Assembly (NCBI GenBank): GCA_031374565.1
Contig: JANMGI010000129.1
Location: forward strand, 1 to 38,910
Direction: 5' to 3'
From: Paracoccaceae bacterium
Lineage (GTDB): Bacteria > Pseudomonadota > Alphaproteobacteria > Rhodobacterales > Rhodobacteraceae
Length of the DNA: 38,910 nt
Both the position numbers and the translations under genes were made by a program. The notes below the pieces were generated by a model. The model saw only the letters and a program-made list of their open reading frames with translations, did not search any database and was not told the origin of the DNA. Of this stretch, positions 3,178-37,835 are shown piece after piece; position 1 is the first letter of the stretch; every line of letters starts with the position of its first letter.

Positions 3178-3603
3178 ATGATCGATACGAAAACCGCCCC
3201 CTATGCCATACTTGCCCTGCGGGTGATGACAGGCGCGCTGTTCCTGTTCCATGGCTGTGTGAAGCTGTTTGTCTTCACCCCAGCCGGGACCGCCGGTTAC
3301 TTCGAAAGCATCGGCCTGCCCGGCGCGCTTGGCTATCTGACTATGCTGGTCGAAATTGCGGGCGGCCTTGCGCTGATCCTTGGCATCAAGACCCGCATCG
3401 TGTCGGTAGCGCTGGTTCCGGTGCTTCTGGGTGCGGCCTGGTTCGGTCACTTGGCGTCAGGCTTCAACTGGTCGAACCCGAATGGCGGCTTTGAATACCC
3501 GCTGATGTGGGCCATCGTGCAGGCAGTGCTCGCGGGACTTGGTGAAGGTGCCTTTGCGCTGGTGCCGTGCTCGAAGGACGCCCGCACCGCTGCCCTCGCC
3601 TGA
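3178..3603 (+). CDS. DoxX-family membrane protein
   Basis: LR...G..FLFHG..KLF, E..GG..LILG..TR and GGFEYP motifs; GGAG RBS before the ATG at 3178. Confidence 0.9.
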   Translation: MIDTKTAPYAILALRVMTGALFLFHGCVKLFVFTPAGTAGYFESIGLPGALGYLTMLVEIAGGLALILGIKTRIVSVALVPVLLGAAWFGHLASGFNWSNPNGGFEYPLMWAIVQAVLAGLGEGAFALVPCSKDARTAALA

Positions 3604-3659
3604 AAAGTCAGCTTGCGCCGTCCCATCATGAGTCGGCGCATTTCGACAGGGGACTGACC

Positions 3660-4634
3660 ATGCTTGTGAACGGCAAATGGACGGCGAATTGGCAGCCGGT
3701 GCAGGCCAAGGACGACCAGGGCCGCTTTGTCCGGCAGGTGTCGTCCTTCCGCAACTGGATCACCCCGGACGGTGCGTCAGGTCCGACCGGCACCGGCGGC
3801 TTCAAGGCCAAGGCCGGTCGTTATCGCCTCTACGTCGCGCTGATCTGCCCCTGGGCCTCGCGCACGCTGATCGCCCGCAAGATCAAGGGGCTGGAGGCGC
3901 TGATCCCGATAACTGTGGTCAATCCGGTGCTGACGGACGAAGGCTGGACCTTTGGCGGCTATCCGGGTGCGGACACTGACCCGCTGCACGATGCCACTTA
4001 CATGCATGAGCTTTACACACGCGCGGACGGCGATTTCACCGGGCGGGCCACGGTCCCGGTACTTTGGGATACGCAAACCGAAACCATCGTTAGCAACGAG
4101 AGCGCAGACATAGTGCGAATGTTCGATACGGCCTTTGCTGATCTGGTTCCGGACAAGCCGTCCCTTTATCCCGCCGACCTTGCCCCGCAGATCGATGCCC
4201 GCAACGCCAAGATCTACGACAGCCTGAACAACGGGGTCTACAAGGCCGGGTTCGCCTCGTCGCAAGCCGCTTATGACGAGGCGGTGGCGGGCGTCTTCGG
4301 GATGCTCGACCGGCTGGAAGCGCTGCTGACCGAAAACTACCTCTTCGGTCAGCGCTTCACCGAAACCGACATTCGGCTGTTCGTCACCCTGATCCGCTTC
4401 GATGCGGCCTATCACGGGCTTTTCAAGACCAACCTGCGCCGGATCGCCGACTACCCCCGCCTTCAGGCCTACATGGAGCGGGTGCTGTTTTTGCCTGGCG
4501 TGGCCGAAACGGTGGACATCGGCCACATCAAGGCCGGGTATTATTCCATCAAGGCACTGAACCCACCGGGGATTGTGCCCGCGGGGCCAGAACATCTGCT
4601 GCGGCTGGTCACGGCGGCGAAAGCCGGTCAGTAA
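3660..4634 (+). CDS. yqjG: Glutathionyl-hydroquinone reductase (omega/Xi-class GST)
   Basis: CPWA active site, RATVPVLWD, NESADI, NNGVYKAGF and IRFD..Y...FK.N motifs. Confidence 0.9.
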   Translation: MLVNGKWTANWQPVQAKDDQGRFVRQVSSFRNWITPDGASGPTGTGGFKAKAGRYRLYVALICPWASRTLIARKIKGLEALIPITVVNPVLTDEGWTFGGYPGADTDPLHDATYMHELYTRADGDFTGRATVPVLWDTQTETIVSNESADIVRMFDTAFADLVPDKPSLYPADLAPQIDARNAKIYDSLNNGVYKAGFASSQAAYDEAVAGVFGMLDRLEALLTENYLFGQRFTETDIRLFVTLIRFDAAYHGLFKTNLRRIADYPRLQAYMERVLFLPGVAETVDIGHIKAGYYSIKALNPPGIVPAGPEHLLRLVTAAKAGQ

Positions 4635-7084
4635 AGGTCGACCCGGAAGGGTATTGTCGTCCAGTGGATGCGGGCGATGTCAATCAGACGCTCGACCGGA
4701 TCGGACTCCAGTGACGTATCGCCATGCTGATCGGCGATGTCCTTGTAGGCTAAGGTGCTGCCGTCCCCGAACGCGCCGTCCGGGGTGACATCGGCCCCAA
4801 GGGCCTGCAACAGCCGCTGGGATGCTTCGTCAATGGCCTTGGCCGGTAGCGCATCCAGCACCTTGCGGGCACGTTCGACCGACTTCTTGTCCCTTAGCGC
4901 CGCCGCCCGTCCGGCGCGGTAGGCGGCATCGGCCTCACTCAGACCCCCAGCGCCTTCGGTCAGGATCAGGTAGGCGGCGTAGGCCCCGGCATTGGCGTCG
5001 CCACGCTCCAGCCCCTTGTCGAACCACTCCACCGCTTGGCCTAGATCGGGCTTCTTCCCCATTGCTCCGCTGGCGATCAGCTGGCCAATGTTGCCCGGAG
5101 CGTTCGGATGCCCGCCATCTGCGGCCTTGGTGAACCAGTCCAGCGCGGTTTTCGCATCCTTCTTCTGGCCGCCAAGGCCATTCATGTAGACAAGACCCAG
5201 GTTGTTGTAGCCGTAGATGTCCCCCCGGTCAGCACTTTCGGTCAGGTAGCGCAGGCCACGTGTCGGGTCGTAGTATTCGCCGGTTTCATCCAGGTAGAAA
5301 TAGCCCAGCTCGTTCATCGCGAAGGTATGGCCGACCTCCAGCGCGCGCATCATCAGGTCATAGCCTTTCAACTTGTCCTGCTCGGTCTTGCCATGGCGCA
5401 CCAACTGGCGGCCCAGCGCGTAGAAGGCGTAGGGGTCGCCCAAATCGACACCCTCACGGTAATAGGCCAGCGCTTCGTCGGGGGCGGCCTCGGATGTGGA
5501 ACCGCCGGTCTGCTGCGCCGCGTTCAGGATGGCGTTGCCGATGGCATAAGACGCGCGGGCATGACCCATCTCGCGCGCTTTGTCCCATTCGGCCCGGGCT
5601 TCGTCATAGCGGCGCAGGGCGTTCAGGGACCGGCCCAGCTGATAGTGGAAACGCGCGTTCTGAGGGTCCCGCGAAACGGCGGCCTCGCAGGCCTGCACTG
5701 CCGCCTCGGGCTCGATTTCGTTGGCGAAACGGGCCAGACCCACGCCGTCAGGATCAAGGTGATCCGCTGCCTCGACATCGCAGGGATCGGGGGTCAGGTC
5801 GACCTGAACGACCTTCGAGGTGCCGTTCAGCTCGACCTTGAACTGGGCTTTCAGCACCGGGTCTTCACCCGCCTCGACAACCGGGCCATTGACATAGGCG
5901 AAGGCAAGGCGCGGCAGATCGTTGGCGGAAAGCGGGAACAAAGGGGCCGACTGCCCGCCCTGGTCATCCAGCAGCACAAGTCGTCCGCCACGCGGCGGTT
6001 CAGTCAGAGCGAGAGTGTCGGTCGGGGCCATGACCAGATCGCTTGCCAGGGTCACACCGATCGGGACAGCAGGTGCAAGCGGTGCGGCGATGCGGATATC
6101 GGCGGGCGCAAGATCGGTTGCCAGCGGCAGAACCTCGGCTGAGCTGGCGAAAAGGGTCAGGCCCCGGCCGACCGACGCGCCCTCAACCGGCGCGGCAACG
6201 GTCGCATCGCTGCTATTGCCGACAGAGGCGATCGAGGCATCCTCGACCATGGTGGAACTGTCCCAGGGCACCTGAACGCCCTTGGTCTCGACAAAAACGC
6301 TGCGGCGGACATCTTCAAAAACGTCGGTTACCGGGACCTTGCCCAGCGCTGCAGCTTGCAGGAAAGCGGTTGCGAAGGGGCTGTTTTCGCCTGCGCCGTC
6401 CAGTGCGACCTCTCCGGGCGAGGTAGAGAACACCAGGTAGGAATTCACCGGAGCCGCCAGCGAGGCGAAGCCGGTCTTGATCTCGCGCAGGTCGGGGCCA
6501 AGCGAATCCTGCACTTTCAGCCCGGCGAAGGGGTTGTTGCGACAGCTGTCGAGGATGACGATCTGCAACCGCGCCCGCGCGCCGACGATGGACACAAGGC
6601 TGCCGACCGACACCGCTTCGAACGGCAGATCGTCGGGCTGGTCCAGCTGGGCATCGGTCGGGATCAGAAAATTCTCGGACCCGATCTGCACGCCATGGCC
6701 AGCGTAATAGAAGAGCACTTCGGTATTGCGATCAACGTCGAACAGGATTCGCTGCATCAGCCTTTCGAAATCACGCTTCGATGCGTCCTTAAGCAGGGTG
6801 ACGTCATAGCCCTGAGTTGCCAGAAGGTCGGCCACATCCTCGGCATCGTTCCAGGCGTTCGGCAGCTTCGGGGCGTAAAGATAGCTTTCGTTGCCGATCA
6901 CCACGGCATACTTCTGACGTGGACCCGTGGCACCATCGGCCATCTTCCGGGCGCTGGCCGGGACATGGCCTTCGGGATAGGCCCCAACGGCCTCGCCAGT
7001 GTCCTGCGCCGCAGCCACCGAAAACGTCGCCATCAGGGCAAGACCTGCAAGCCCAAACGCTGCGCGTTTGGCAGGACCGGACAT
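4628..7084 (-). CDS. Exported caspase-family (peptidase C14) protease with TPR/Sel1-like repeats and a possible C-terminal peptidoglycan-binding segment
   Basis: Signal peptide ending AAA-QD; AVVIGN..Y, NDA, YYAGHG (His) and ILDSCRNNP (Cys) motifs; Sel1-like repeats in the C-terminal half; a DGAFG motif near the end. Confidence 0.9.
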   Translation of the reverse strand: MSGPAKRAAFGLAGLALMATFSVAAAQDTGEAVGAYPEGHVPASARKMADGATGPRQKYAVVIGNESYLYAPKLPNAWNDAEDVADLLATQGYDVTLLKDASKRDFERLMQRILFDVDRNTEVLFYYAGHGVQIGSENFLIPTDAQLDQPDDLPFEAVSVGSLVSIVGARARLQIVILDSCRNNPFAGLKVQDSLGPDLREIKTGFASLAAPVNSYLVFSTSPGEVALDGAGENSPFATAFLQAAALGKVPVTDVFEDVRRSVFVETKGVQVPWDSSTMVEDASIASVGNSSDATVAAPVEGASVGRGLTLFASSAEVLPLATDLAPADIRIAAPLAPAVPIGVTLASDLVMAPTDTLALTEPPRGGRLVLLDDQGGQSAPLFPLSANDLPRLAFAYVNGPVVEAGEDPVLKAQFKVELNGTSKVVQVDLTPDPCDVEAADHLDPDGVGLARFANEIEPEAAVQACEAAVSRDPQNARFHYQLGRSLNALRRYDEARAEWDKAREMGHARASYAIGNAILNAAQQTGGSTSEAAPDEALAYYREGVDLGDPYAFYALGRQLVRHGKTEQDKLKGYDLMMRALEVGHTFAMNELGYFYLDETGEYYDPTRGLRYLTESADRGDIYGYNNLGLVYMNGLGGQKKDAKTALDWFTKAADGGHPNAPGNIGQLIASGAMGKKPDLGQAVEWFDKGLERGDANAGAYAAYLILTEGAGGLSEADAAYRAGRAAALRDKKSVERARKVLDALPAKAIDEASQRLLQALGADVTPDGAFGDGSTLAYKDIADQHGDTSLESDPVERLIDIARIHWTTIPFRVDLY

Positions 7085-7308
7085 CAGTTCCAGCCGCCGC
7101 CGCCAGAGCCGCCGTCGTCAAAGACGATGACCGGCTTCTTCTTCACCACAGGAGCCGCCGCACCCGGAGCGACGGCCACCGGCTTCTTGACTGGCTTGGC
7201 CACGACCACTGGTTTTGGTTCCGGTTCCGGCGGAACAAGCTCTTCGCAGCCCGCAAGAAAACCCAGAGCAGCGACAAGAAACAATGAGCGAGACAGGTTT
7301 CTGCGCAT
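7084..7308 (-). CDS. Small lipoprotein
   Basis: Basic N-terminus, hydrophobic stretch and LAGC lipobox, then a P/K/V-rich linker and a DDGGSGGGGWN tail. Its stop overlaps the caspase ATG. Confidence 0.75.
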   Translation of the reverse strand: MRRNLSRSLFLVAALGFLAGCEELVPPEPEPKPVVVAKPVKKPVAVAPGAAAPVVKKKPVIVFDDGGSGGGGWN

Positions 7309-7476
7309 CAAGAGACCCTTTTGCTGAAGCGATGGTCAACCGCAGACTATCATGAAAATCACGCAACGAATTCAGAATATGGTGGCACGATTCGGGCTGC
7401 GCCGCAACAAAAGCAAGAGGTATGGCCGCACGCGATGCCCCAGGAATCCCTTACCCAAGCTGTAGGGCAGGACGGG

Positions 7477-8139
7477 TCAGCTTAGCGCCTGGAACTCGAC
7501 CCGGCGGTTCTGGTCGGAATCGGGATCTGCGCCTTCCAGCAGGAAGCGCTCGCCCAGACCCACAGCCTCCAGCCGCTTGGCGTCGATGCCGCAGTCGGTG
7601 ATGAAGAATCGTTGCACCTCTTCGGCCCGCAGACGGGACAGCCGTTCGTTGTAGTCGTCGGACCCGGACGCGTCAGTGTGCCCGATGATGCGGAACAGGT
7701 TGATGTCCGCAGCTTTCATCACATTGCACAGCTTTGCCAGCTTGGGCTTCTGCACCTCGTCCAGCGCGGCACTGTCGAAGGCAAACTCGATCCGGATATT
7801 GACCCCCAGATCAGCTGGCATCTTCACAAGCGTTGCCGTCTCATTCGCGGCCACGACCGTTTCCGTCGCTGCCGCGGTGTCTGCAACCGGCTCGACAGCA
7901 GAAACGTCGGTCGACGGTGCGGCATCATCCTTGGCCACTTCGGTGGAAATATCCACGTCATCCGCCTTGACCAGCGTCAGGCCCCGCGTCAAGGCAGTGT
8001 TGCCTTCGACTGCGGCCTTGTAGGCATCCCGCTGGGCCAGGAAAAGCTCAAGCAACTGATCTTCGGACAGGTCCTGTGCAAAGCTGCCGACGGGGACAAG
8101 CGTGGCACAGATCGCAAGGCTTGCAAGAATCGCGCGCAT
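7477..8139 (-). CDS. Periplasmic OmpA-family peptidoglycan-binding protein
   Basis: Signal peptide (SFA-QD), acidic linker, then F.FDSA.L, GHTDASG..YN..LS..RA and NRRVEF motifs. Confidence 0.92.
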   Translation of the reverse strand: MRAILASLAICATLVPVGSFAQDLSEDQLLELFLAQRDAYKAAVEGNTALTRGLTLVKADDVDISTEVAKDDAAPSTDVSAVEPVADTAAATETVVAANETATLVKMPADLGVNIRIEFAFDSAALDEVQKPKLAKLCNVMKAADINLFRIIGHTDASGSDDYNERLSRLRAEEVQRFFITDCGIDAKRLEAVGLGERFLLEGADPDSDQNRRVEFQALS

Positions 8140-8182
8140 AATCGGACCACCTTCCAGAAAAAACGGATTTATGACTGTGCGA

Positions 8183-8211
8183 AGTCTAGGCTATGATGCA
8201 CGGGCATTCAA
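8183..8211 (-). promoter_or_regulatory. Putative sigma70 promoter of the ompA-lipoprotein-caspase operon
   Basis: TTGAAT-N17-TAGACT on the minus strand, about 45 nt upstream of the ompA ATG. Confidence 0.5.
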
Positions 8212-8236
8212 TTCACACCTTTGGGCGGGCTGCGCC

Positions 8237-8986
8237 ATGAACACGCCGATCACCGTCGTTCCGGGACTGTCGCTGCCGGTTGCCGTTGGTGCAGGGCTGA
8301 CCAACCGCGGCATGGTGCGAGACCGCAACGAAGACTCGATCCTGACCGATCCCTCGGGCACGCTTTGGGCGGTGGCCGACGGAATGGGTGGCTACGGAAA
8401 CGGCGACGTCGCCTCGGACATCGTGATCGATTGTCTGGCGAAGATCCCGGACGGGGTCGATCCCGGACCTGCGCTGGTGGCCCGGCTGAAAGAGGCGAAC
8501 GATCTGATCCTTGAACGGCAGCGCGCTCCGGGGATGGGGCGGATGGGCTCGACCGTGGTGGCGATCCTGATTTCCCGCGCTGTCGCCCATGTCGCCTGGG
8601 CCGGGGACAGCCGGGCCTATCTCTTGCGCGGCGGTCACCTGCGGCCCCTGACCCGCGATCATTCGGTGGTACAGGAAATGGTCGACCGGGGCGAACTGTC
8701 GCCGGAAGAGGCCGAAAGCCACCCGGAATCGCACATGGTGACGCGGGCGGTTGGTGGCGGGGCAGAGCTGGAGGTCGATCTGGTCAGCGTGCCGTTGGCT
8801 GTGGGCGACCGGCTTTTACTCTGCAGCGACGGGCTGACCCGCTGCGTCTACGAGCAGACGGTCGAGGCCCTGCTGAAAGAGGCAACCGATCCCGAGGATG
8901 CCTGCCAGCGCCTCTTGCGTGAGGCTCTGGACAGCGGCGCGCCCGACAATGTCTCGGCCATCACCGTCCAGATCCGGGAGGGCTGA
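8237..8986 (+). CDS. pppA: PP2C-family Ser/Thr phosphatase, T6SS-associated
   Basis: R..NED, ADGMGG, GDSRAY, LLCSDGL and DN motifs; located in the T6SS cluster with ppkA and fha. Confidence 0.88.
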   Translation: MNTPITVVPGLSLPVAVGAGLTNRGMVRDRNEDSILTDPSGTLWAVADGMGGYGNGDVASDIVIDCLAKIPDGVDPGPALVARLKEANDLILERQRAPGMGRMGSTVVAILISRAVAHVAWAGDSRAYLLRGGHLRPLTRDHSVVQEMVDRGELSPEEAESHPESHMVTRAVGGGAELEVDLVSVPLAVGDRLLLCSDGLTRCVYEQTVEALLKEATDPEDACQRLLREALDSGAPDNVSAITVQIREG

Positions 8987-8989
8987 GAG

Positions 8990-9877
8990 GTGCAGCGGAC
9001 AAACCTTGTCGCCCCGATCATCGTCGCCATCGGGGTCATCATAGCCGCCGTCGCCTTTGCCATGGTGACGACCCTGCTGGAATCTGCCGACAGCGGGGCC
9101 GACCTGCGCCTGACCCGCCTGGAAGAAGCGTTTGATTCCGAAGCCGCGCAGCGCTCAGCGCTGGAGACCGAAATCGTCGCGCTGAAGGCAGACCTGGCAC
9201 AGATGCGCGACGACATGAGCCTTCTGGCCAACCGCGCGCCAGTCGCACAGACCCCGGACATCGCAGCCCCGACCGACAGCGAAGTCCTGACCGGCCCGGA
9301 AGACGAACAGCATCAGCCCGAGACTCAAGCGCTGACCGAGCAGATGAAGGCAGCGCGGGACCGATTCAACAAGGGCGTGACCCAGCCGCGCAACAAGACC
9401 ATGCTGGCGCTTCTGGGCCGCCCGCGTGAGGACCTTGGCACTGACTGCCGGGGGATCACCAACCCCAGGCTCAAGGCCCTGGTCGAAACCCGCACGATCG
9501 GCCCGATCAAGGCCACGATGCTGAAACCCGCGCTGGACAGCCTTGAACGGATCTTCGCCAAACTGAAGGCGGATGAGCCTGACATCTATGCCAAGCTGGG
9601 CACGGCAGGGGCGCTTTGCGTGCGGCTGATCCGGGGCTCGAACTCCTCGGTCTCGAACCATTCCTTCGGCACGGCGATCGACATCACGTTGCAAGGTGAG
9701 CTGGACCCCTTCGCAGATGGCACCATGCAAATCGGTCTCGTGATCCTGGCCGAACACTTCAACGAGGAAGGCTGGTACTGGGGCGGGGGCTACAACCGCG
9801 AAGACGGGATGCATTTCGAGGTGGGCGAGGAAACGCTTCGCAAATGGGTCGAGGACGGGCTGATTCCTTCGCAATGA
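8990..9877 (+). CDS. Membrane-anchored M15-family zinc peptidoglycan peptidase (TagX-like role)
   Basis: N-terminal TM helix, coiled coil, then SNHSFGTAID (H-x6-D) and DGMHFE motifs. Confidence 0.85.
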   Translation: MQRTNLVAPIIVAIGVIIAAVAFAMVTTLLESADSGADLRLTRLEEAFDSEAAQRSALETEIVALKADLAQMRDDMSLLANRAPVAQTPDIAAPTDSEVLTGPEDEQHQPETQALTEQMKAARDRFNKGVTQPRNKTMLALLGRPREDLGTDCRGITNPRLKALVETRTIGPIKATMLKPALDSLERIFAKLKADEPDIYAKLGTAGALCVRLIRGSNSSVSNHSFGTAIDITLQGELDPFADGTMQIGLVILAEHFNEEGWYWGGGYNREDGMHFEVGEETLRKWVEDGLIPSQ

Positions 9878-12351
9878 GTGCCGATCCGAACAGCCCGCGC
9901 ACTGTGATGCCGCCCCGGCGCGGCGGGCGGACCTCCGACCCGGACGTTTATGAACAGGCAGCGGCACCGGTCCTGCGAATGGCAGAGGAACTGGCGACAG
10001 TTAGGGGCGTGGGCGCACAAAAGCTGGTGCAGCAGGCCGCCGATGCGCTGGACCGTTTCAGCGCCGACTTGCAGCGGGCGGGTGTCGTGCCCTCGACAGT
10101 GCAGCCGGCGCGCTATGCTTTGGGTTGGCTTCTGGACCAGAAGGCCCGGGCCAACCGCGCGGTGGATGTGGCGCTGTGGGGGGCGGGGGCGCATCGGCTG
10201 ATCTTCGACGGACGCGACATGGCGCCTTCCACGTTGCGCGACTTCATCCGCAAAGCTGTCGATGCGGGGCCGGATTTCAACGGCGTGCGCGTGTTCATGG
10301 AGCGCCGCCAGGCCGAGCTTGAGGGCAGCCGAACGCGGTTTGACCGCAACCTGGGCGCGGGCTGGACCGGGATCACGCTGGTCTTGATACTGGCCTTCGT
10401 CGCCCTGCTGGCGGGATGGGCCGGTTTCGTGGAATGGCGCTTCCACCGCGACCTGACCCGACTTTTCGACGCCGAGGCGCTGTCCATCGGACTGGATCGC
10501 GACGCGGTGATGCCCGACTTGCCCCAGCGTCTGACCCGGTTGGGAGAGGCCGCCGATGGCGTGGCACGGGCTGCGGACAAGGCTCCTATCCGGCTTTTCG
10601 CGGGGGCATTCGGCTTTGACGCCGCAGCACACGCCGATGAAGTTTACGAAGCAGCCGTGCAACAGCATGTGCCGGGCGAAATGGCGCGGGCCGTTGATGC
10701 AGCGCTTGCGGCCGAAGGGGAGAGTCTGCCGCTCTACGACACACTGCGGGCCTGGTCGATCCTTTCGGGCCAGGCGGAGTGGGCGCCCGACTATCTTGCG
10801 GGTTGGCTTGCGGATCGCGCCGGGGCGATGCCCGATCTGCAACCCCTTGTCCCCCACCTTGCCCGCCTGCGCCTGCCGCCCGGCCCCCTGCCACCACCGG
10901 ATGCCGAGCTTTTGACCCAGGCCCGCACCTTTGCCGCCGAGGCCACCGAAGGAGCGCGGGCCTATCTGGAGCTTCTTCGGTCTAACGGTGCGGCGGACAT
11001 TGCCCCCTGGGTGCCGGACGTGGCTGTGCCGGGCCTTGCGGTCGTGATGCAGCGTCGCTCCGGCATTGCGGTGAACACTTCGATTGCCGGGCTTTTCACC
11101 CAAGATGGCTGGGATTTCGCCCGCAAGATCGGGGCCGGGCTCGCCGTGCAGACCGCGCGGGACGAAGCCACCCGACTGTTCGACAAACCGCCCGCCACAG
11201 CAAACGACTCACCGGATCAGGTGCTGGATATCCTGCAGCGTGAAACCCTGTCGCGCTGGAAGGCCTTCCTTGCCGACCTTCAGGTGCAGCCCTTTGCAGA
11301 CCCCGCGCAGGCGGTCCTGATCTCGGGCCGCCTTGCGGTGCCGGATTCGCCCCTCGCCGCCCTGCTTCCCGAGGTCTGGGCGCAGGTCGGCGGACTTGAC
11401 CGCGACCGCCCGCATGCCATGCAGCTGCGCATCGCCTCGGACTTTGCCGCGCTGATCCAGTACTCCGAAGATGGCCGGATGTCCGAAATTGCCGGTCTTT
11501 TCGCCAGCCTGAACGTTGCTCTTGGTGCAATGGACAAGGACGAACCGCGTGGTTTGCAGCGGTTGATGTCGGCCAAAGCGCGGGGCGCGACGCTGACCGC
11601 CTTGCGCACCGCCCCACCGATGGTCGTGCAGATCGTCGAGGACGTTCTGGCCCAGACCAGTGCCGCCCAGGCCGACCCCTTGTCGAACCCGCTGACCAAG
11701 GCCTGGCAGTCCGAAGTGCTGTCCTTGTGCAAAGGTACGACCGAAGGCCGCTATCCCTTTGCCGAAGGGTCTGAGGCAAGCCTGGCCGAAGTCGCCGGTC
11801 TTCTGGCCCCCGGCGGTGCCATCGACCGCTTCTACCGCACCCGGGCCGAGCCCTATATCGACACCTCCAGCAACCCATGGCGTTGGAAGCCGGACGCCCG
11901 TTTTGCGGGACTTGACCCGAAAAGCGCCGAGTTCCTGCAACGCACCCAGGCCATCGCCGCCGGTCTTGCGGGGCAAGGCACTACCCTCAATCTTGCCGCC
12001 CTTGCTGAACGCGGCAAAACTTTTGTCGCCATCGGCGGCGCCGGGGGGCCGGTGGAGACCAGTCTGGAGCCGCTGACGCTGACCTGGCCCGGTGCCAATC
12101 CCGCCGCCGGGGCCGAAGTCCGCTTCACCACGTCAGAAGGCAGCGCCAGCCTGGTCCAGCCGGGCGAATGGGGACTGTTCCGCATTCTTGACGGCGTCCG
12201 GCTGCGCGAACGCGACGGCGGCAAACGCTTTCTGGTCGATCTGCGGTCCGGCGGGGCACGGCTATTTGTGGAAGTGCAGTTCCAGACCGAGGCCAACCCG
12301 CTGTCACGCTGGCGGCTGCTGAAAGGTCTGGCCTGCCCCACCGCACTTTGA
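9874..12351 (+). CDS. TssL(DotU)-like / TssM(ImcF) periplasmic-domain fusion protein
   Basis: The N-terminal region aligns by eye with DotU (AAAPVL..., ARYAL..LLD). One TM follows, then similarity to the TssM periplasmic part (LYDTLRAW, GLFTQDGW, TEGRYPFA, PWRWK, LTWPG, GEWGLFR, CPTAL). There is no Walker A motif. The ATG overlaps the upstream stop. Confidence 0.85.
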   Translation: MSADPNSPRTVMPPRRGGRTSDPDVYEQAAAPVLRMAEELATVRGVGAQKLVQQAADALDRFSADLQRAGVVPSTVQPARYALGWLLDQKARANRAVDVALWGAGAHRLIFDGRDMAPSTLRDFIRKAVDAGPDFNGVRVFMERRQAELEGSRTRFDRNLGAGWTGITLVLILAFVALLAGWAGFVEWRFHRDLTRLFDAEALSIGLDRDAVMPDLPQRLTRLGEAADGVARAADKAPIRLFAGAFGFDAAAHADEVYEAAVQQHVPGEMARAVDAALAAEGESLPLYDTLRAWSILSGQAEWAPDYLAGWLADRAGAMPDLQPLVPHLARLRLPPGPLPPPDAELLTQARTFAAEATEGARAYLELLRSNGAADIAPWVPDVAVPGLAVVMQRRSGIAVNTSIAGLFTQDGWDFARKIGAGLAVQTARDEATRLFDKPPATANDSPDQVLDILQRETLSRWKAFLADLQVQPFADPAQAVLISGRLAVPDSPLAALLPEVWAQVGGLDRDRPHAMQLRIASDFAALIQYSEDGRMSEIAGLFASLNVALGAMDKDEPRGLQRLMSAKARGATLTALRTAPPMVVQIVEDVLAQTSAAQADPLSNPLTKAWQSEVLSLCKGTTEGRYPFAEGSEASLAEVAGLLAPGGAIDRFYRTRAEPYIDTSSNPWRWKPDARFAGLDPKSAEFLQRTQAIAAGLAGQGTTLNLAALAERGKTFVAIGGAGGPVETSLEPLTLTWPGANPAAGAEVRFTTSEGSASLVQPGEWGLFRILDGVRLRERDGGKRFLVDLRSGGARLFVEVQFQTEANPLSRWRLLKGLACPTAL

Positions 12352-18807: not shown

Positions 18808-20247
18808 CTAGAGCTTCTTCTCGATCTTGATCTCGATGCGACGGTTTTCGGCGCGGCCTGCCTTTGTGCCATTGTCGCCCACGGGTTCGCTGTCGGCCCT
18901 ACCTTCGGCGGCCAGCAGGTCCGGCGGAACTCCGGCGGCACTAAGAAGGTCAGCGATGGTCTTGGCGCGAGCCTCTGACAACCCCTGGTTCGACGCGAAC
19001 GGGTTCGAGGCTTGCACCGGAACAGAGTCGGTGTGGCCGATGATGGTGACTTTGCCGATGACGTCGATGTTTTCGGTGATGCATTCGGCAAGCGCGGTCA
19101 CCAGCGAACCGTAGACATCGTTGATAGTGGCCTTGGCGGACCGGAACACTTCGGGGTTGCTGCCGCGCAGGGTGAAGAAGGCAAAGCTGACGTCATCCTT
19201 GCCGCTTAAGGCCGCAGCAGTGTCGGCTGGGGCCTTGGCCAGACAGGCCGGGACCAGTTCCAGCACCGCGGGCGCCAGCACGATCTCGGGTGCGGGGGGG
19301 TCGGCATTGGTGCGCACCGGACGGAAGATCTCGGCGCGCTCAGGCGGCGGAAGCAAACGGGCAAGCGCGTAAAGCTGCGTGGCCTTGTTCGACAGCTGGA
19401 TGCCAAGGCCGACATAGGTTGCAGTAGTGACGGCGACAGCGGCCAGCGCGATGGTCCAGAGCGGCACGGCAAAGCGCGGCCTTTCGTCCGGCGCGACCAC
19501 ACCTTGCCAATGCGGGGAAAGCTCTGCCGCTTCCGCCTCGGGGTTGCGGATCGCGCGGGCGATGGCCGACCGCGTCGCCAACAGCGCGGACTCCCCCGCC
19601 CGTCCTTGCACCCGGTGCTTGCCCCGGAAACCAAGGTTCAGGCAGTGAAACCCAAGTTCAAGCATCTGCGGGTCGCGGTTGGGATACCGAAGCAGCTCGT
19701 CCAGCCGGTCGAAGAACTTGGTTCCGGCGTCCACTTCGCCCGAAAGCCCTACGACGAGCGGTTGCCGGGGCCAGCTGGAATGGCCGCCCCAGGGCGTGTT
19801 CAGCGCAATGTCATCCACCAGTGCAGCCACGAACCAGGCGGCCTGATTGGCGCGGCTCATCGGGACGCCCATGCCGATGGCGCTGTCCCGGGCGTCGATC
19901 AGATTTTCCTGCACTCGCAGCCGCAACGCCTCGGCATTGGCCGGAGGCGTCGCCCGTTCCAGTTCCGGAGCAAGCTCCAGAAGCGATGCAAAGGCAACGA
20001 TCAGCGGGTTGGCATGGGCGCGGGTGAGACGAGGTTTCGGTCCGCGACCCCCCTGTGGTGGATAGTCGGGAGGCGGACTTCCGAATCCCTGCCCGCCATA
20101 TCCGCCCCCGTAGCTCTGTGTCGAAGGTTGCTCGGCCCCGAACGTCGGGCGCTGCGGGGTGGTGGCGGGCGTATTGGACTTCACCGGGCGGATGCGTGTC
20201 CGCCCGGCGTCGTTCGATAGACCGAAGGGATCGTCATCGTTGCTCAT
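18808..20247 (-). CDS. tssL: TssL long form (DotU + TM + OmpA)
   Basis: DotU motifs (D..AL.TPWG..SW, G..FF..L, LGFRGK), one TM, GHTDS and NRRIEI. Confidence 0.96.
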   Translation of the reverse strand: MSNDDDPFGLSNDAGRTRIRPVKSNTPATTPQRPTFGAEQPSTQSYGGGYGGQGFGSPPPDYPPQGGRGPKPRLTRAHANPLIVAFASLLELAPELERATPPANAEALRLRVQENLIDARDSAIGMGVPMSRANQAAWFVAALVDDIALNTPWGGHSSWPRQPLVVGLSGEVDAGTKFFDRLDELLRYPNRDPQMLELGFHCLNLGFRGKHRVQGRAGESALLATRSAIARAIRNPEAEAAELSPHWQGVVAPDERPRFAVPLWTIALAAVAVTTATYVGLGIQLSNKATQLYALARLLPPPERAEIFRPVRTNADPPAPEIVLAPAVLELVPACLAKAPADTAAALSGKDDVSFAFFTLRGSNPEVFRSAKATINDVYGSLVTALAECITENIDVIGKVTIIGHTDSVPVQASNPFASNQGLSEARAKTIADLLSAAGVPPDLLAAEGRADSEPVGDNGTKAGRAENRRIEIKIEKKL

Positions 20248-21614: not shown

Positions 21615-22073
21615 TCACATCGGGGTCAGCTTGATCCCGCTGGCCGTTACGTCAAGCGCGAACGTCACGGCGTCTGTCGGCGAGACCGAGGACTTGGCGC
21701 GGAACTGTTTGCCACCTGGATCACGGAAGCCGGCAACAATGGCGATCAAGGCCGTTGACGGGTCAAGCGTGACAGTCTTGGTCGCCTTGCCGCCGGGGGC
21801 AAGCGCGATTGTGTCGGCCTTCACCAGATCGCCGCCAAGCGCCTTGGCGGGCGACTGCAAGGCAAAGAAGTCGGCCCCATCAAAGGCCCCCGCCCCGCGC
21901 AGTTGCAGGACCTGCAACGTCATTGGCCGGTCAGCACCATCCGGGCCGGGGTTCATGCCGGCAGCCCCTTGCGCCACCAGCGTCACCGATCCGGGGCCGG
22001 ATGGGGCGCAGGACACCAATAGAACGGCGCTGCTGCCAATCAGAAAGGCACGGCGTGGAAACTCATGTGTCAT
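21615..22073 (-). CDS. tssJ: T6SS lipoprotein TssJ
   Basis: RRAFL..LLVSC signal/lipobox; MNPGPDG..RP..L...QL, F..ADFF.L and A.FRD motifs. Confidence 0.9.
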   Translation of the reverse strand: MTHEFPRRAFLIGSSAVLLVSCAPSGPGSVTLVAQGAAGMNPGPDGADRPMTLQVLQLRGAGAFDGADFFALQSPAKALGGDLVKADTIALAPGGKATKTVTLDPSTALIAIVAGFRDPGGKQFRAKSSVSPTDAVTFALDVTASGIKLTPM

Positions 22074-23547
22074 CGGTCTTCTCCCTGTTGCCTTCATAAG
22101 CGTCGCGAAAATCCGCACCCACTTCGCCCAGGAACCGGTCCTCGGCGGCGCGGGCGATGTCCTTGTAGCGGTCAGTATAGGCCTTCCACAGCTTTGCGTT
22201 GCGGCCCCCGGACAGAAGGCTGCCCAGCATCCCCAGTTCCTCCAGATCCTTCTCGACCGCCGACGGGTCGAATCGGTCGATCATCCGGCGCAGCGCGGAC
22301 TGGACCCCGACCCATGACCGCATCTGGTGGTCGGCCAGATCGCGGAACGCCCCGTTGATCGCATCGTCAGGATTCAGGTAGCCGGGCCCACGCGCAGCGA
22401 TCATCGCGGCCAGCGCCTCGTTGGTCGAGGCGAGGAATTTCAGCGGATTGACATCAGTGTTGCTGATTACCGTCTGCGCCACGCGGGCGTTCTGCTTTTC
22501 CTTGGCCCGGGTGCGCAACATCAGCATCAGACCCTCGACCAGCAGGCGGAAGCGCTGGCCCATCGCCTCCATCTCGGCCAACGGGTCCTGCGCTGCGACC
22601 GGATCAAGGCCAAGGCCGCGGTAGAAGGCGTCGCGCAGGGCCGCATCCGGAACGGCCGGGACTGGCTGAGTGGACCGGGGCTCAGGCGCGGGTGTAGGAG
22701 CGGCTTCACCGCGCTGACGGGTGCGGTTGTCCTCGTCATGGATGACGACCTGGGGCGCGGGTTCCGGCTTCAGACCTGGCGGCTCCGGAGGGAGGGGGGC
22801 CGGGGCAGCAGGGTCAGGGTCGGGCGCGGCCACCGGTGGGGGCATAGCCCACCAGTCATCGGATGCAGGTGCGCCAACCGGGGCAGCGGGCTTGGGTGGT
22901 GCGGACGCATCGGCTTTGCCCGGTCCATCGAAGAACCCGCCAAATCCGAAATCGTCAGGGCGGGGGGCGATAGGTTCGGGCACACTGCCAGCAGGGCGGG
23001 CCGAAACCGAATGCTCCAGCGTGAAGGGGTCGTCGAACAGCGGTGGCGGTGGGGCGCGGTCCGGGGTCGCGTCATAGCGCCGGGCGTCTGTAGCGCCCTG
23101 ATCAAAGGGCTGCGGCAGGCCGTCCGGGCGGCGCACAGGCGGCGGCGGCGTCACCGGTTGCGAGAAGAAGTCATCATGCGTCATCTGTCGCTGCGTCGGG
23201 GCCTGCGTGCGAGGCCCAGCAACTGGCACCGCGGCCTCGACCTCGACCCGGATCACCGTGTCCCCCAGCCGCAGCCGCATCCCGGATTCAAGACGCGCCG
23301 CATTGCCCGGCCCCAGCGGCTGGTCTTTGCCGTCGATGTAAAGCCCGCCCCGGCTGGCGTCGGTGACGGTGAACTGCCCCGCCTCGCCGGTGATCACGCA
23401 ATGCTTGCGCGAGACATACATGTCGGGGTCGTTCAACTGCCACGAACATTCGGCCCCGCGCCCAATCGAGAACTCTCCTCCCGGATGACGCATTTCGCGC
23501 CGGTCCTGCGGATGCGTGCTGTGCTCGATGACAAGGCGAAGGGTCAT
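22063..23547 (-). CDS. tagH: T6SS FHA-domain protein TagH/Fha
   Basis: FHA motifs IGRG..C and VSRKH, a Pro-rich linker, C-terminal NPLKF and W..Y...Y motifs. Confidence 0.93.
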   Translation of the reverse strand: MTLRLVIEHSTHPQDRREMRHPGGEFSIGRGAECSWQLNDPDMYVSRKHCVITGEAGQFTVTDASRGGLYIDGKDQPLGPGNAARLESGMRLRLGDTVIRVEVEAAVPVAGPRTQAPTQRQMTHDDFFSQPVTPPPPVRRPDGLPQPFDQGATDARRYDATPDRAPPPPLFDDPFTLEHSVSARPAGSVPEPIAPRPDDFGFGGFFDGPGKADASAPPKPAAPVGAPASDDWWAMPPPVAAPDPDPAAPAPLPPEPPGLKPEPAPQVVIHDEDNRTRQRGEAAPTPAPEPRSTQPVPAVPDAALRDAFYRGLGLDPVAAQDPLAEMEAMGQRFRLLVEGLMLMLRTRAKEKQNARVAQTVISNTDVNPLKFLASTNEALAAMIAARGPGYLNPDDAINGAFRDLADHQMRSWVGVQSALRRMIDRFDPSAVEKDLEELGMLGSLLSGGRNAKLWKAYTDRYKDIARAAEDRFLGEVGADFRDAYEGNREKTDDT

Positions 23548-24572
23548 GCGGCCTCCACCTGCGCAACGCGGTAAAGCCGCAGATCGTCGGCATCCGCCTG
23601 CCGCTTCGGCGACAGCCAGGCTGTGCGCCCCAACTGGCAATGGCCAAGCTGGGCGTCGGGGATTTCTTCGCGCGCCATGACCAGTCGCAGGTTGAACTCC
23701 ATTTCGCGCCCCATGGCGTGCCTGATCGCATGGCGAAGGCGCGCGGTCAGATCGGGGTCAGCGAGAAACTGCGTGAACCGGGAAAAGGTCAAAGGCCCGA
23801 CGCGCAGTTCCACCAGCGTCTGCCTCTGGAAGCTGCGGGAACCAACCACTGCCGAACGACCAAGCTGAGCATAGGCCTGCCCAAGACGTGATTGCAAGCG
23901 TTCGGGGATCTGCGTCCATGTGCCGATGAATTCCACCAGACCGACCGGGACCTCCAAGACATCGCCCAGATAGGCGGTCAGCCGTTCAACACTGGTAACC
24001 TGCCGCCCAAGCGAGGTCGCGTGCCGCAGCTTCAGCCGGGTCTGCGCATCCGGCCCCTTCGGCTTGGTCCCCGGCAGGGCGACCCCCGCCAGCGTCTCGA
24101 CCAACGCCTGCACCCGGCCCGCCGCCCCATGCTCGATCTGGACTTCGGGGCGGGCATCGGCCCAGGCCCTCCAGTACAGCGACATCATCCGGTGCTGAAG
24201 GAGGTTGCAGAAATCCAGGAATGTCGTGTCCGACGCCGCATCGCTGCCATCGGTGAACCAGCGGTCCGACATCCGCCCCATGACCCAGCGGGTGATGTGC
24301 AACGGCAGCGCGCCCTCGGGTCCAAGCAGGCCCAGCACCTCGACATCCACCTTCGCGGGGGGGCCGGGGGTGAACCCGGCAACATCGCGTGTCCCGAAGG
24401 TTAGCCGCGCGCGCTGGCCCAGACGTGCCGGTTCGCGCGACGGCCCGCCCGACCGGCCAAACCGCGCGCCGTCGCGCTCCAGCCTGCGCAAAAGCTCGAA
24501 GAAGCCCATGGTTTCGGGAGCGACCAGATCTCCGGTCAGATCAGGGCGCGGTTGCCCGGCGTCATCGGCCAC
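23544..24572 (-). CDS. tssG: Baseplate subunit TssG
   Basis: FFELLRRLE, GLLGPEGALPLH.T, F.D..N...HR...L..RAW and LGRTAWL motifs. Confidence 0.95.
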   Translation of the reverse strand: MADDAGQPRPDLTGDLVAPETMGFFELLRRLERDGARFGRSGGPSREPARLGQRARLTFGTRDVAGFTPGPPAKVDVEVLGLLGPEGALPLHITRWVMGRMSDRWFTDGSDAASDTTFLDFCNLLQHRMMSLYWRAWADARPEVQIEHGAAGRVQALVETLAGVALPGTKPKGPDAQTRLKLRHATSLGRQVTSVERLTAYLGDVLEVPVGLVEFIGTWTQIPERLQSRLGQAYAQLGRSAVVGSRSFQRQTLVELRVGPLTFSRFTQFLADPDLTARLRHAIRHAMGREMEFNLRLVMAREEIPDAQLGHCQLGRTAWLSPKRQADADDLRLYRVAQVEAA

Positions 24573-31047: not shown

Positions 31048-33159
31048 TCAAGGTCTTGCATCGATGACCCTGGTTGCGACGGACACGATGTTCCCGGGGT
31101 CTTTCGCGATCACCCCTTGCAGTTCATCCGCAAGACCTCCGACCGATAACGTTTCTGGCAGGCGGGTGCCGAAAAGCGAGGTTTTCGACAGAATCGCAAT
31201 GATCTCGGATTTGCCGAAATTGCCCGCGTCGACCTTGATCGAGTAAACCCCGTTGCCGGCCTTCATGTCACTCAGGCTGTACAGAACGCGGACCCGGCGG
31301 ACGCCGTCGGCAACGGTCCCAATGTTCTCGATTGCGTGCTCGGCCTGCGTCTCGTTCGGCAGCAGGCTGAAAACCTGGTTGGTGTTGTCGACCACCAGCA
31401 CCCACAACGACAGGCCAGTCAGTTCGGGAGGCACCAGCACTTCGACCACGGGATTGTCACCTGCATGGAAGATGCCGGACAGGTTCACCTCGCCTGTCGC
31501 GCCATCTCCAAACCAGATGACCGCGTCGCCCGCCCCGACCGGCGGCAGCACCGTGCGGACGGCGCAGAGGTCCCTGTTTAGAATGGTCACATCCAGCCGC
31601 ACCGAACGGTCGCCAACCATCGTCTCAATCGCCGCTTGCAGCGCATCTCGGGCCTCGACCGACGGCAGCGCGCCGGTGACCACGATGGTATCGCCCATGT
31701 CGTAAAGCTGTAACGGTCCCTTGTCGGGCGAAAGCAGCCCGCAGATGGCAAAGGGCGCAAGCGCGTCCAGCACCGCCTGCCCCTGCAACTTGCGCGGGCC
31801 GACCTTCAGGCCAATGTCGATCTGCATCCCCGTGCGCTTTGCCCAATCTTGTAGGGCCGCGCGCTTCTGATCCAACTGCTCCCGCGTGGTGGCGATGCCA
31901 TCGAAGGCGACAGTTTTGTCCGTGACCGACAGCGACCACTCTGCCAGCCCCTGCATCAGGCCAAGAAGGTCGGCAAGGTTCTCGACCCACTGCGCGTCGG
32001 GCACACCCTGGGCCAGGGGCAGCGCATCCTTCGGCGGCGTTGCCCCCGTGGCGGCAGTGAAAGCCAGACCCAGGCGCTGCGCTGCTTCCGCGTCAGGGGC
32101 GTTTCCGGACAGCGCCGCGCTGTCCGGCCCGAAACTGGCCGTAAGCATATAGGGAGAAACACTGGGGATCGGGTTCAGATAGGGGTCCAGAAGCCCCGCA
32201 TACCAAGACCCGCCGCCGAACAGCGAAAGCAGCAGTACCGCCAGCAGCGCAAAAGTGCCGCCGCGACCCTTGGTCATGGTGCCCGTGTCAACCGGAGGCA
32301 AAGTCTGCCGCTTGCCCCGCCCCGACACCGGCTGCAACGCCTGATTCAGGCGGGAAACCACCGCCTCGGCACTAACGGGCCGGTCGGACAGCGCCGGGGC
32401 GGACAGCCAGTCCACCAGCCCCTTCAGGGGTTCCTGTACGCCCTCCGTATCCAGCTTCGACTGCTTGCGCCGCACAATCTCACCCGGCGTCGATCCGCTG
32501 AACGGAACCTGCCCCCGGAACGCCGCCAGCAGCGTCGCCCCCAGCGCATAAAGGTCCGACCGTCGCTCTGCCCGCCCCTCCAGCTGCTCCGGCGCGGCGT
32601 ACTCATACTTTCCCGCGAACTCATTCCCGACAATCGTCCGTGCGCCCGCCGTCGTGTCCTTGGCGATGCCGAAGTCGATGATCGTCGCCTTCTCCGGCGC
32701 GCCATCCCGCAACACCACATTGTCGGGCGACAGGTCCCGATGCACGATCCCCCGCGCATGGGCCACCACCAACCCCTCGGCCACCCGATGCGCAATGATC
32801 ATCAATTCGCGCGGTTCCATCCGGCGGCGCATCATCACGTCGTTCATCGATGGCCCGTCGATGAAATCCATCACCAGAAACACATGCCCCTGGTCGGTCC
32901 GCGAACATTCGGTGTAGCGCACCACCGCGTCGTTCAGCACGTCGCGCATCTGCTCTTCGCGCTTCATCAGCTCGATATAGTCGTCGTTTCCGGAAAACTG
33001 CGCGTTCAGCGCCTTGATCGCGACGATCCGCCCCGAGATCTGGTTGCGCGCTCGGTAAACCTCGCCCGTGCCGCCCCGCCCCAGCACACCCTCGATCTCG
33101 TAGGTGTGGTTCAGCACCTGACCCTGACGGAAGATGTCACCCGGCAGACGGTCGATCAT
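31048..33159 (-). CDS. ppkA: Membrane Ser/Thr kinase PpkA with BON-like and DUF4384-like periplasmic domains
   Basis: GRGGTGEV, VAIK, HRDLSPDN, IDFG and APE kinase motifs, one TM, then C-terminal VVD..NQV..L.PN and FG.SEIIAILS. Start reset to the ATG at 33159. Confidence 0.9.
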   Translation of the reverse strand: MIDRLPGDIFRQGQVLNHTYEIEGVLGRGGTGEVYRARNQISGRIVAIKALNAQFSGNDDYIELMKREEQMRDVLNDAVVRYTECSRTDQGHVFLVMDFIDGPSMNDVMMRRRMEPRELMIIAHRVAEGLVVAHARGIVHRDLSPDNVVLRDGAPEKATIIDFGIAKDTTAGARTIVGNEFAGKYEYAAPEQLEGRAERRSDLYALGATLLAAFRGQVPFSGSTPGEIVRRKQSKLDTEGVQEPLKGLVDWLSAPALSDRPVSAEAVVSRLNQALQPVSGRGKRQTLPPVDTGTMTKGRGGTFALLAVLLLSLFGGGSWYAGLLDPYLNPIPSVSPYMLTASFGPDSAALSGNAPDAEAAQRLGLAFTAATGATPPKDALPLAQGVPDAQWVENLADLLGLMQGLAEWSLSVTDKTVAFDGIATTREQLDQKRAALQDWAKRTGMQIDIGLKVGPRKLQGQAVLDALAPFAICGLLSPDKGPLQLYDMGDTIVVTGALPSVEARDALQAAIETMVGDRSVRLDVTILNRDLCAVRTVLPPVGAGDAVIWFGDGATGEVNLSGIFHAGDNPVVEVLVPPELTGLSLWVLVVDNTNQVFSLLPNETQAEHAIENIGTVADGVRRVRVLYSLSDMKAGNGVYSIKVDAGNFGKSEIIAILSKTSLFGTRLPETLSVGGLADELQGVIAKDPGNIVSVATRVIDARP

Positions 33160-37826: not shown

Positions 37827-37835
37827 GAAAAGAAA

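What the first reader, a model, noticed from the sequence alone, without database searches (positions are those of the whole stretch)
4628..8986. Exported caspase-Sel1 / lipoprotein / OmpA operon as a possible new T6SS trigger module
Seen: three envelope-targeted genes share a 97-bp divergent region with pppA. The caspase has a signal peptide and an intact His-Cys dyad, so it is unlikely to be a T6SS-secreted effector. No tagQRST homologues are visible in the window. Known: in Pseudomonas aeruginosa H1-T6SS, TagQRST relays envelope damage to PpkA. Inference: this operon may replace TagQRST with a periplasmic protease-based damage sensor.
Basis: partly seen in the sequence, partly recalled or inferred. 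Interest (0 to 1): 0.85.

Follow-up and report, generated by a model that had tools for sequence, protein, structure and literature searches.

The report
Exported caspase and cleavable T6SS anchor
Beside the genes for a bacterial type VI secretion 'spear-gun' lie a caspase-like protease predicted to be exported, a small lipoprotein that travels with it, and a predicted cell-wall-binding protein carrying an invariant arginine motif that such a protease likely cuts, which would be an undescribed, testable protease switch for the weapon's activating kinase.

Summary
The three genes, the 97-bp gap and the His-Cys dyad are confirmed, but they are two modules, not one. (1) The OmpA gene is TagN of the Sinorhizobium fredii-type T6SS. 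It occurs in 42 of 300 family genomes; all 42 have a T6SS and a caspase. Its variable linker holds an invariant [TSA]-R-G-L motif (Arg in 42 of 42), absent from the Acinetobacter and Ralstonia TagN checked, whose fetched cluster regions show no kinase or caspase. (2) The lipoprotein precedes 35 of 35 orthologs of this caspase, but only 4 of 21 family orthologs lie near T6SS genes; 5 flank Tad-pilus loci. Other caspase clades fill the T6SS slot elsewhere. The caspase is closest to Arg-specific MALT1 and carries the same RGL motif in its own linker. Best reading (about 0.35): an exported caspase cuts TagN at R52|G53 and so signals to PpkA's periplasmic DUF4384-like domain. Nothing shows cleavage, binding or damage sensing. 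This scan noted caspase-T6SS-kinase linkage before on other DNA; two word look-ups found no note on the motif, and my paper searches found neither.

The parts
4628..7084 (-). Exported C14 orthocaspase, 818 aa: signal peptide, catalytic domain (His130, Cys181; acidic pocket Asp80, Asp179, Asp229), linker with G-R-G-L (Arg307), a middle region with weak cadherin/Ig-like look-alikes, TPR and Sel1 repeats
   Evidence: middle region only a lead (scores 0.75-0.76)
6155..6169 (-). G306-R-G-L-T310, candidate self-cleavage site after the catalytic domain
   Evidence: an R[GS][LIFV] motif lies 100-160 residues after the catalytic Cys in 18 of 34 dereplicated caspases against 24% expected
7084..7308 (-). 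74-aa lipoprotein: lipobox Cys, Pro/Ala/Lys-rich linker, Gly/Asp-rich tail ending in Trp; translationally coupled to the caspase
   Evidence: same architecture upstream of 35 of 35 orthologs of this caspase, 0 of 34 other caspases
7477..8139 (-). TagN (S. fredii type): signal peptide, amphipathic helix 26-46, invariant T-R-G-L motif, low-complexity linker, OmpA-like peptidoglycan-binding domain
   Evidence: 41% identity over 224 aa to the 248-aa S. fredii SMH12 protein; PMC11872809
7972..7989 (-). T51-R-G-L-T-L56, candidate caspase cleavage site R52|G53
   Evidence: Arg 42/42, Gly 40/42, Leu54 41/42, Leu56 41/42; 40 of 50 distant representatives against 2.0 expected
8140..8236 (.). 97-bp divergent intergenic region between tagN and pppA
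   Evidence: no sigma-70 consensus found; divergent layout kept in 41 of 46 related loci
8237..8986 (+). pppA, PP2C phosphatase
8990..9877 (+). M15 peptidase (TagY of S. fredii, TagX-like), constant neighbour of tagN
   Evidence: within 1.5 kb of tagN in 29 of 30 loci
9844..12351 (+). DotU-IcmF hybrid (TagM of S. fredii)
18808..20247 (-). tssL that already carries its own OmpA domain
22063..23640 (-). fha (TagH), presumed kinase substrate
31048..33159 (-). ppkA: Ser/Thr kinase, hydrophobic segment, weak BON-like region, C-terminal Ig-like DUF4384-like domain (31051-31551)

Best explanation
TagN, an accessory gene of this T6SS type that carries an invariant Arg-Gly-Leu motif, is likely a wall-bound substrate that an exported, predicted arginine-specific caspase cuts at R52|G53, and the cut would switch on the kinase PpkA. 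Inferred steps: the lipoprotein's Gly-Trp tail tethers the caspase to a membrane through its TPR/Sel1 repeats; a cue not identified here activates the protease, perhaps with self-cleavage at R307|G308; cutting TagN frees a 31-residue helical peptide and exposes a G-L-x-L strand still tied to peptidoglycan; one of the two engages the periplasmic Ig-like domain of PpkA, which phosphorylates Fha or TssL; PppA resets the system. Shown: the gene content, linkage, dyad, acidic pocket and motif conservation. The protease slot is filled by different caspase clades in different lineages, so the 818-aa enzyme here may be only one of two candidates in this genome.
For: TagN of this type is in 42 of 300 family genomes; 42 of 42 have TssC and 42 of 42 a caspase, against 15 of 34 T6SS genomes without it (kin not independent). 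It lies next to ppkA (21) or pppA (9) in 30 of 30 loci returned, directly upstream of ppkA with M15 and a caspase alongside in 7 loci of a second T6SS subtype. The motif is invariant while its distance from the helix (3 to 16 residues) and from the OmpA domain varies, and it is often tandemly doubled. It is kept in Rhizobium and Sinorhizobium TagN, whose clusters end in a caspase gene, and missing from one Acinetobacter and one Ralstonia TagN, where no kinase, phosphatase or caspase-domain match was seen in the stretches fetched. All 10 solved sequences matched by the catalytic domain are MALT1, which needs Arg at P1 and small P2 residues (PMC3304489); characterised non-animal C14 enzymes cut after Arg/Lys (PMC5756287). 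Asp80, Asp179, Asp229 are kept in 77, 77 and 76 of 77 homologs. In 7 of 7 caspases beside tagN in the second subtype an R-G or R-S sits in the linker after the catalytic Cys. TssL already has an OmpA domain, so a second anchor is not obviously needed. C14-DUF4384 fusions exist in relatives.
Against: No cleavage, binding or phenotype is shown. AlphaFold2 models residues 54-69 and 92-106 of TagN as strands at pLDDT about 75-84, so the motif may be structural. Only 4 of 21 family orthologs of this caspase lie near T6SS genes; 5 of the 17 closest T6SS loci lack it beside tagN. The caspase-linker motif is in only 18 of 34; the window's caspase and the genome's second exported caspase have no R-G just after the catalytic Cys. 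11 of 40 ppkA contigs have no caspase within 50 kb, most of them in fragmented assemblies. Some T6SS clusters with caspase and kinase showed no TagN in the 20 kb fetched (L158, L162). DUF4384 membership is below cut-off and the profile comparison with C14-DUF4384 fusions gave nothing. In several loci the caspase follows a two-partner-secreted adhesin or lies by an autotransporter, which are other possible substrates.
Confidence: 0.35

Rival explanations
1. TagN is an uncut peptidoglycan anchor or scaffold; R-G-L-x-L is a structural strand or docking motif for PpkA, TagY or TagM. The caspases serve the cluster separately, for example by maturing the secreted adhesins or autotransporters often encoded beside them.
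For: AlphaFold2 strands at 54-69 and 92-106; anchoring is the published proposal for TagN (PMC11872809); conservation is stronger after the Arg than before it; TpsB-TpsA-caspase runs follow tagN in several loci.
Against: Variable spacing and tandem doubling of the motif fit a short linear site better than a fixed strand; the invariant residue is the Arg in a predicted non-strand kink; 42 of 42 co-occurrence with caspases; TssL has its own wall-binding domain.
Confidence: 0.3
2. The caspase does cut TagN, but as an assembly step: the cut releases TagN's hold on the wall, on the M15 peptidase or on the TagM/TssM membrane complex and does not signal through PpkA.
For: The M15 gene is the most constant neighbour of tagN (29 of 30 loci); TagX-type peptidases open the wall for membrane-complex assembly (PMC13584744).
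Against: tagN lies directly upstream of ppkA on the same strand in the second subtype and beside ppkA or pppA in 30 of 30 loci; the two motif-less TagN checked have an M15 gene nearby in at least the Ralstonia cluster but no kinase match.
Confidence: 0.2
3. The 818-aa caspase and its lipoprotein are a mobile two-gene envelope-signalling unit that landed beside tagN in one lineage and act on something else; the T6SS is served by the 518-aa caspase on contig C195 or by none.
For: 17 of 21 family orthologs have no T6SS gene in the 35-40 kb fetched; 5 flank Tad loci in genomes without TssC; the C195 enzyme belongs with the clade found next to tagN/M15 elsewhere; 168-bp gap after tagN.
Against: The same ortholog clade sits at T6SS loci in separate branches (closest relatives, four Shimia loci, G274, G295, G006, G044); 16 of 21 ortholog genomes have TssC against 76 of 300 overall.
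Confidence: 0.15

Closest known systems
Group-3 T6SS of Sinorhizobium fredii USDA257 with TagM, TagN, TagY, PpkA-PppA-Fha-TagF (PMC11872809)
   Same: Same accessory set and order; TssC 84% identical to S. fredii SMH12; TagN of 248 aa, 41% identical.
   Different: The paper proposes anchoring for TagN and has no occurrence of 'caspase' or 'C14' in main text or the one supplement held; here the motif and the linked caspases are the point.
TagQRST-PpkA-Fha1-PppA of Pseudomonas aeruginosa H1-T6SS (PMC13713981, abstract and outline read)
   Same: Kinase, phosphatase and FHA protein; a lipoprotein plus periplasmic proteins as candidate input.
   Different: No FGE-sulfatase TagR found; the kinase's outer domain is Ig-like/DUF4384-like; the proposed input is proteolytic rather than complex formation.
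RtkS (Serratia, PMC6082577) and TssW (Acidovorax, PMC12607579), lineage-specific PpkA inputs
   Same: Envelope proteins encoded in the cluster that act on a lineage-specific PpkA periplasmic domain.
   Different: They bind PpkA directly and no protease is involved; no sequence comparison with them was made here.
MALT1 paracaspase and cyanobacterial orthocaspase MaOC1 (PMC3304489, PMC5756287)
   Same: C14 fold, His-Cys dyad, D-x-C-R motif, acidic pocket; cleavage after Arg; MaOC1 self-processes.
   Different: They are cytoplasmic; this enzyme has a signal peptide, TPR/Sel1 repeats and a dedicated lipoprotein.
TagN of Acinetobacter/Burkholderia/Ralstonia (PMC13584744: role 'remains elusive')
   Same: Signal peptide plus C-terminal OmpA domain in a T6SS cluster.
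   Different: The two checked have a different N-terminal half and no linker motif.
YfiB of the YfiBNR system
   Same: Top structural matches of the OmpA domain; a wall-binding OmpA-like protein acting as envelope sensor (role recalled, not read).
   Different: Match covers only the OmpA domain, about 30% identity, like many other OmpA-like proteins; YfiB is a lipoprotein and is not known to me to be cut.

Membership tests
TagN (S. fredii type) | Signal peptide plus C-terminal OmpA domain, about 250 aa | tested here: met
   220 aa, PF00691 at 119-212; signal peptide by inspection
TagN (S. fredii type) | Encoded in a T6SS cluster with TagM and TagY, homologous to the S. fredii protein | tested here: met
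   (41% over 224 aa to the 248-aa protein of strain SMH12; the USDA257 sequence itself was not fetched)
TagN (S. fredii type) | Binds peptidoglycan | not testable with these tools
   inferred from the OmpA-like fold
C14 orthocaspase / paracaspase-like protease | His-Cys dyad in a p20-like domain | tested here: met
   His130, Cys181
C14 orthocaspase / paracaspase-like protease | Acidic specificity pocket | tested here: met
   Asp80 and Asp179 align with MALT1 aspartates and are invariant in 77 rows; Asp229 in 76; their role as the S1 pocket is recalled
C14 orthocaspase / paracaspase-like protease | Cleavage after Arg | not testable with these tools
   needs an enzyme assay
T6SS threonine-phosphorylation pathway | Membrane kinase, PP2C phosphatase and FHA protein in the cluster | tested here: met
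TagQRST input | FGE-sulfatase protein TagR | tested here: not met
   no PF03781 match in G000, 87% complete
TagQRST input | TagS/TagT ABC transporter | tested here: inconclusive
   none among the window ORFs scanned; rest of the genome not searched
TagQRST input | Activation by membrane damage | not testable with these tools
   needs imaging and phosphorylation assays
DUF4384 (PpkA outer domain) | Match to PF14326 above cut-off | tested here: inconclusive
   24 of 26 homologs match at E<=1, best 6e-5, below 27 bits; Ig-like fold; profile comparison negative
TagL | Three N-terminal transmembrane segments; compensates a TssL without OmpA domain | tested here: not met
   one signal-like hydrophobic stretch by inspection; TssL has its own OmpA domain
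RtkS | Sequence homology to RtkS | not tested
   no RtkS sequence was fetched

The most novel reading that the evidence does not exclude
Alphaproteobacterial T6SSs are armed by a periplasmic caspase cascade: a lipoprotein-tethered Arg-specific caspase cuts wall-bound TagN, and the new N-terminus or the released helix is the ligand of DUF4384-type domains on membrane kinases. The same caspase / R-G-hydrophobic motif / OmpA / DUF4384 / FHA toolkit also serves Tad pili, making it a general proteolytic trans-envelope signalling language.
Probability: 0.25. Interest if true: 0.9.

Novelty: new variant of a known kind. Interest (0 to 1): 0.72.

Why it matters
The inputs to T6SS kinases are known in only a few genera and none read here involves a protease; a 2026 review calls TagN's role elusive and never mentions caspases. 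Signal-peptide-bearing alphaproteobacterial caspases have no substrate known to me. The motif names one residue (TagN Arg52) and one enzyme class, so a single point mutant and an N-terminal sequence in S. fredii USDA257, where Hcp secretion is already assayed, would test a substrate, a role for TagN and a new kind of kinase input at once.

Tried and rejected
Complex prediction of the PpkA outer domain with TagN 53-84: no answer, neither support nor evidence against. Profile comparison of the PpkA domain with C14-DUF4384 fusions: not significant. Fold searches of that domain: generic Ig-like hits only, best Z 8.7, no solved PpkA domain listed. Fold search of TagN: OmpA domain only, nothing for the N-terminal part. 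Promoter scan: no sigma-70 site. RNA runs: no RNA holder listed. ESM Atlas for the caspase middle region: leads under 0.8 only. A homolog search with TagN 20-70 returned only close relatives. The careful tree did not finish; the quick tree was used only to group caspase clades. The strict motif as a genome-wide pattern is not specific: 26 matches in 11,388 raw ORFs, many spurious frames. Rejected: the caspase as a T6SS-secreted effector (signal peptide, coupled lipoprotein); the three genes as one conserved unit; TagL identity. Paper searches (listings) showed no paper on caspases acting on a T6SS or on TagN cleavage; a search for MALT1 P1' preference in PMC11165066 found no passage, so Gly at P1' of MALT1 substrates is recalled.
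Full report
Observation. The window is one whole contig of a fragmented, 87%-complete genome and holds a full T6SS cluster. The closest relatives of its M15 protein (84-90% identity) are mostly labelled Tabrizicola. Signal peptides are judged by eye. No TagR-type FGE-sulfatase was found in the genome.

The OmpA gene is TagN. The cluster matches the group-3 T6SS of S. fredii USDA257, where a DotU-IcmF hybrid (TagM), a 248-aa signal-peptide/OmpA protein (TagN) and an M15 peptidase (TagY) were named (PMC11872809, passages read; its one held supplement searched). S. fredii SMH12 has the same order and a 248-aa homolog 41% identical to ours. Of 46 loci found with the M15 protein, 41 have this gene in place; three of the others are short or differently arranged contigs, one starts at M15, and in one it was not detected. 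In an even sample of 300 family genomes it is present in 42; all 42 have TssC and none of the 224 without TssC has it. In the 30 of 43 loci returned (ours included), M15 is within 1.5 kb in 29, ppkA in 21 and pppA in 9.

Caspases follow this T6SS as a family, not as one ortholog. 57 of 76 TssC-positive genomes have a caspase match against 39 of 224 TssC-negative ones (the protein search scored only three candidates per genome, and kin are not independent). All 42 TagN genomes have one, against 15 of 34 T6SS genomes without TagN. All 45 genomes behind the M15 loci that I submitted (45 of 46) have PF00656. For 40 of them (five dropped: no, split or divergent ppkA; only caspase hits of E<=5e-29 entered), 29 have a caspase within 50 kb of ppkA on the same contig. 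A second subtype packs pppA, ppkA, tagN, M15 and a caspase together, tagN directly upstream of ppkA, in 7 of the 20 stretches fetched. Rhizobium etli CIAT 652, S. americanum and S. fredii SMH12 have a caspase gene at the vgrG end of the cluster, and Paracoccus methylovorus has tagN-tpsB-tpsA-caspase. A quick tree puts these enzymes in several clades.

The window's own caspase is less faithful. It lies beside tagN in 12 of the 17 closest loci and in four Shimia loci. Of 21 full-length orthologs in the family sample (two are contig fragments), 16 genomes have TssC but only 4 have T6SS genes in the 35-40 kb fetched; the 5 without TssC all place it at a Tad-pilus locus. What does travel with it is the lipoprotein: a lipobox or Gly/Asp-rich Trp-ending ORF lies just upstream of 35 of 35 orthologs (25 by a strict lipobox filter, 10 by the tail pattern) and of 0 of 34 other caspases tested with the tail pattern. 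The genome also has a 518-aa exported caspase of the clade found beside tagN/M15 elsewhere, on another contig next to a Clp ATPase gene.

The motif. In 42 aligned TagN sequences (three YceI-OmpA proteins left out) Arg52 is invariant, with Thr51 39, Gly53 40, Leu54 41 and Leu56 41, inside a linker otherwise conserved at about 20-65%. It is present in 7 of 7 TagN of the second subtype, where the gap to the upstream helix shrinks from 16 to 3 residues, in 30 of 30 family loci and in the four rhizobial and Paracoccus proteins read. Of 150 representatives at 50% identity, 128 passed length and single-domain filters; 103 carry the strict motif, including 40 of the 50 that were found by the OmpA domain alone (2.0 expected from shuffles); many of the rest have near variants, several have it twice in tandem, and a few have none. 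Among 11 distant class-level loci 7 have it, one a variant, three none; two lie next to a caspase. One Acinetobacter and one Ralstonia TagN lack it, and those stretches gave no match to our kinase, phosphatase or caspase domain; two cases are a thin control.

Why a cleavage site. The catalytic domain matches only MALT1 among solved structures (10 of 10 sequences, E about 1e-9). MALT1 needs Arg at P1 and prefers L-V-S-R (PMC3304489, passages); characterised non-animal C14 enzymes cut after Arg/Lys and MaOC1 self-processes (PMC5756287, passages). That MALT1 substrates often have Gly after the Arg is recalled, not read. Three acidic residues are kept in 76-77 of 77 homologs (rows were picked by the His motif). 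The window's caspase has G-R-G-L at Arg307 just after the domain, and 18 of 34 dereplicated caspases have such a motif there against 24% expected. The seven caspases beside tagN in the second subtype have R-G or R-S in the linker after the catalytic Cys, but neither of this genome's two candidates does. Against cleavage, AlphaFold2 draws residues 54-69 and 92-106 as strands, with R52-G53 between strands, so a structural role stays open.

The receiver. PpkA ends in a conserved 167-aa domain modelled with high confidence as an Ig-like sandwich, weakly DUF4384-like and present in every TagN-linked kinase checked. DUF4384 is fused to C14 domains at the Tad loci and to a membrane protein beside ExbB/ExbD and a caspase at other T6SS loci. 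That TagN or its fragments bind this domain is inference from gene order alone.

Comparison. Known PpkA inputs are TagQR (PMC13713981, abstract and outline), RtkS (PMC6082577, passages) and TssW (PMC12607579, passages); none involves a protease in what I read. The 2026 accessory-factor review has no occurrence of 'caspase' or 'protease' and calls TagN's role elusive (PMC13584744, passages). A roseobacter T6SS survey has no 'caspase' either (PMC9515649, passages). Searches listed no paper on the link; subscription papers and unread supplements could hold it. Earlier notes of this scan report caspase-kinase-T6SS linkage in several lineages; they are not independent support. One of them called its lipoprotein an orphan, whereas the one here is a constant partner of its caspase. 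Look-ups for the motif found nothing.

Verdict. Observation confirmed, interpretation partly supported. It works like a lineage-specific PpkA input but is not TagQRST. Rough odds: caspases functionally tied to this T6SS type 0.8; the motif a caspase site 0.55; the cut feeding PpkA 0.35; damage as the cue unknown. New variant of a known kind, interest 0.72, because one residue makes the open TagN question directly testable.

Noticed in passing
L032, L033, L035, L036, L044 (G107, G013, G117, G212, G252): Tad/Flp pilus loci in genomes without TssC: CpaB, ATPase, TadB/C-like genes, a kinase-like membrane protein ending in an FGE-sulfatase domain, a C14-DUF4384 fusion lacking the dyad, an OmpA protein with R-G-F/Y or R-N-F just before its OmpA domain, and the caspase-lipoprotein pair nearby. 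Looks like the same signalling toolkit on a pilus.
   Followed up: partly
L147-L154, L157 near tssA: ExbB, two ExbD, a membrane protein ending in DUF4384, and in most a caspase and a YceI-OmpA-type protein, beside tssA of the second T6SS subtype.
   Followed up: partly
L039:3321-12543, L090, L116, L204:20703-29347: tpsB-tpsA-caspase operon next to tagN; in G274 also a Big_9/cadherin autotransporter after the caspase ortholog.
   Followed up: partly
L031:16132-16467, L035:16303-16707, L033:3531-3842: Small secreted two-cysteine protein upstream of the lipoprotein-caspase pair in 5 genomes, with T-R-G/T/A in its middle; no Pfam match.
   Followed up: no
window 36966-38758: Stand-alone PAAR-like gene whose TGA stop is followed at once, in frame, by a 158-aa ORF with no Pfam or NCBIfam match, then two more ORFs without a family; possibly an effector and immunity set.
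   Followed up: no
window 14768-15292 and 36451-36966: Two tagF copies, and a DUF6484 gene at 36036-36443.
   Followed up: no
G000:C203:445-2415, C412:3215-6619, C429: Three more caspase-like genes in the genome: a 657-aa one with R-G-F near its C-terminus next to a secreted protease-like gene, a 1135-aa one with long repeats, and a fragment.
   Followed up: no
L158:10777-14823, L162:3241-15486: A third T6SS arrangement: caspase with an M23/SLT protein and DUF1036, kinase nearby in L162, no TagN match in the 20 kb fetched.
   Followed up: no
L160, L161, L163, L164, L166 beside the caspase: Secreted helical protein of no Pfam family, ending in L-L-R-S, repeatedly next to the caspase in the second subtype.
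   Followed up: no
window 3567-4634: Glutathione S-transferase-family gene converging on the caspase, with the two stop codons overlapping at 4628-4634; the downstream neighbour varies in relatives.
   Followed up: no
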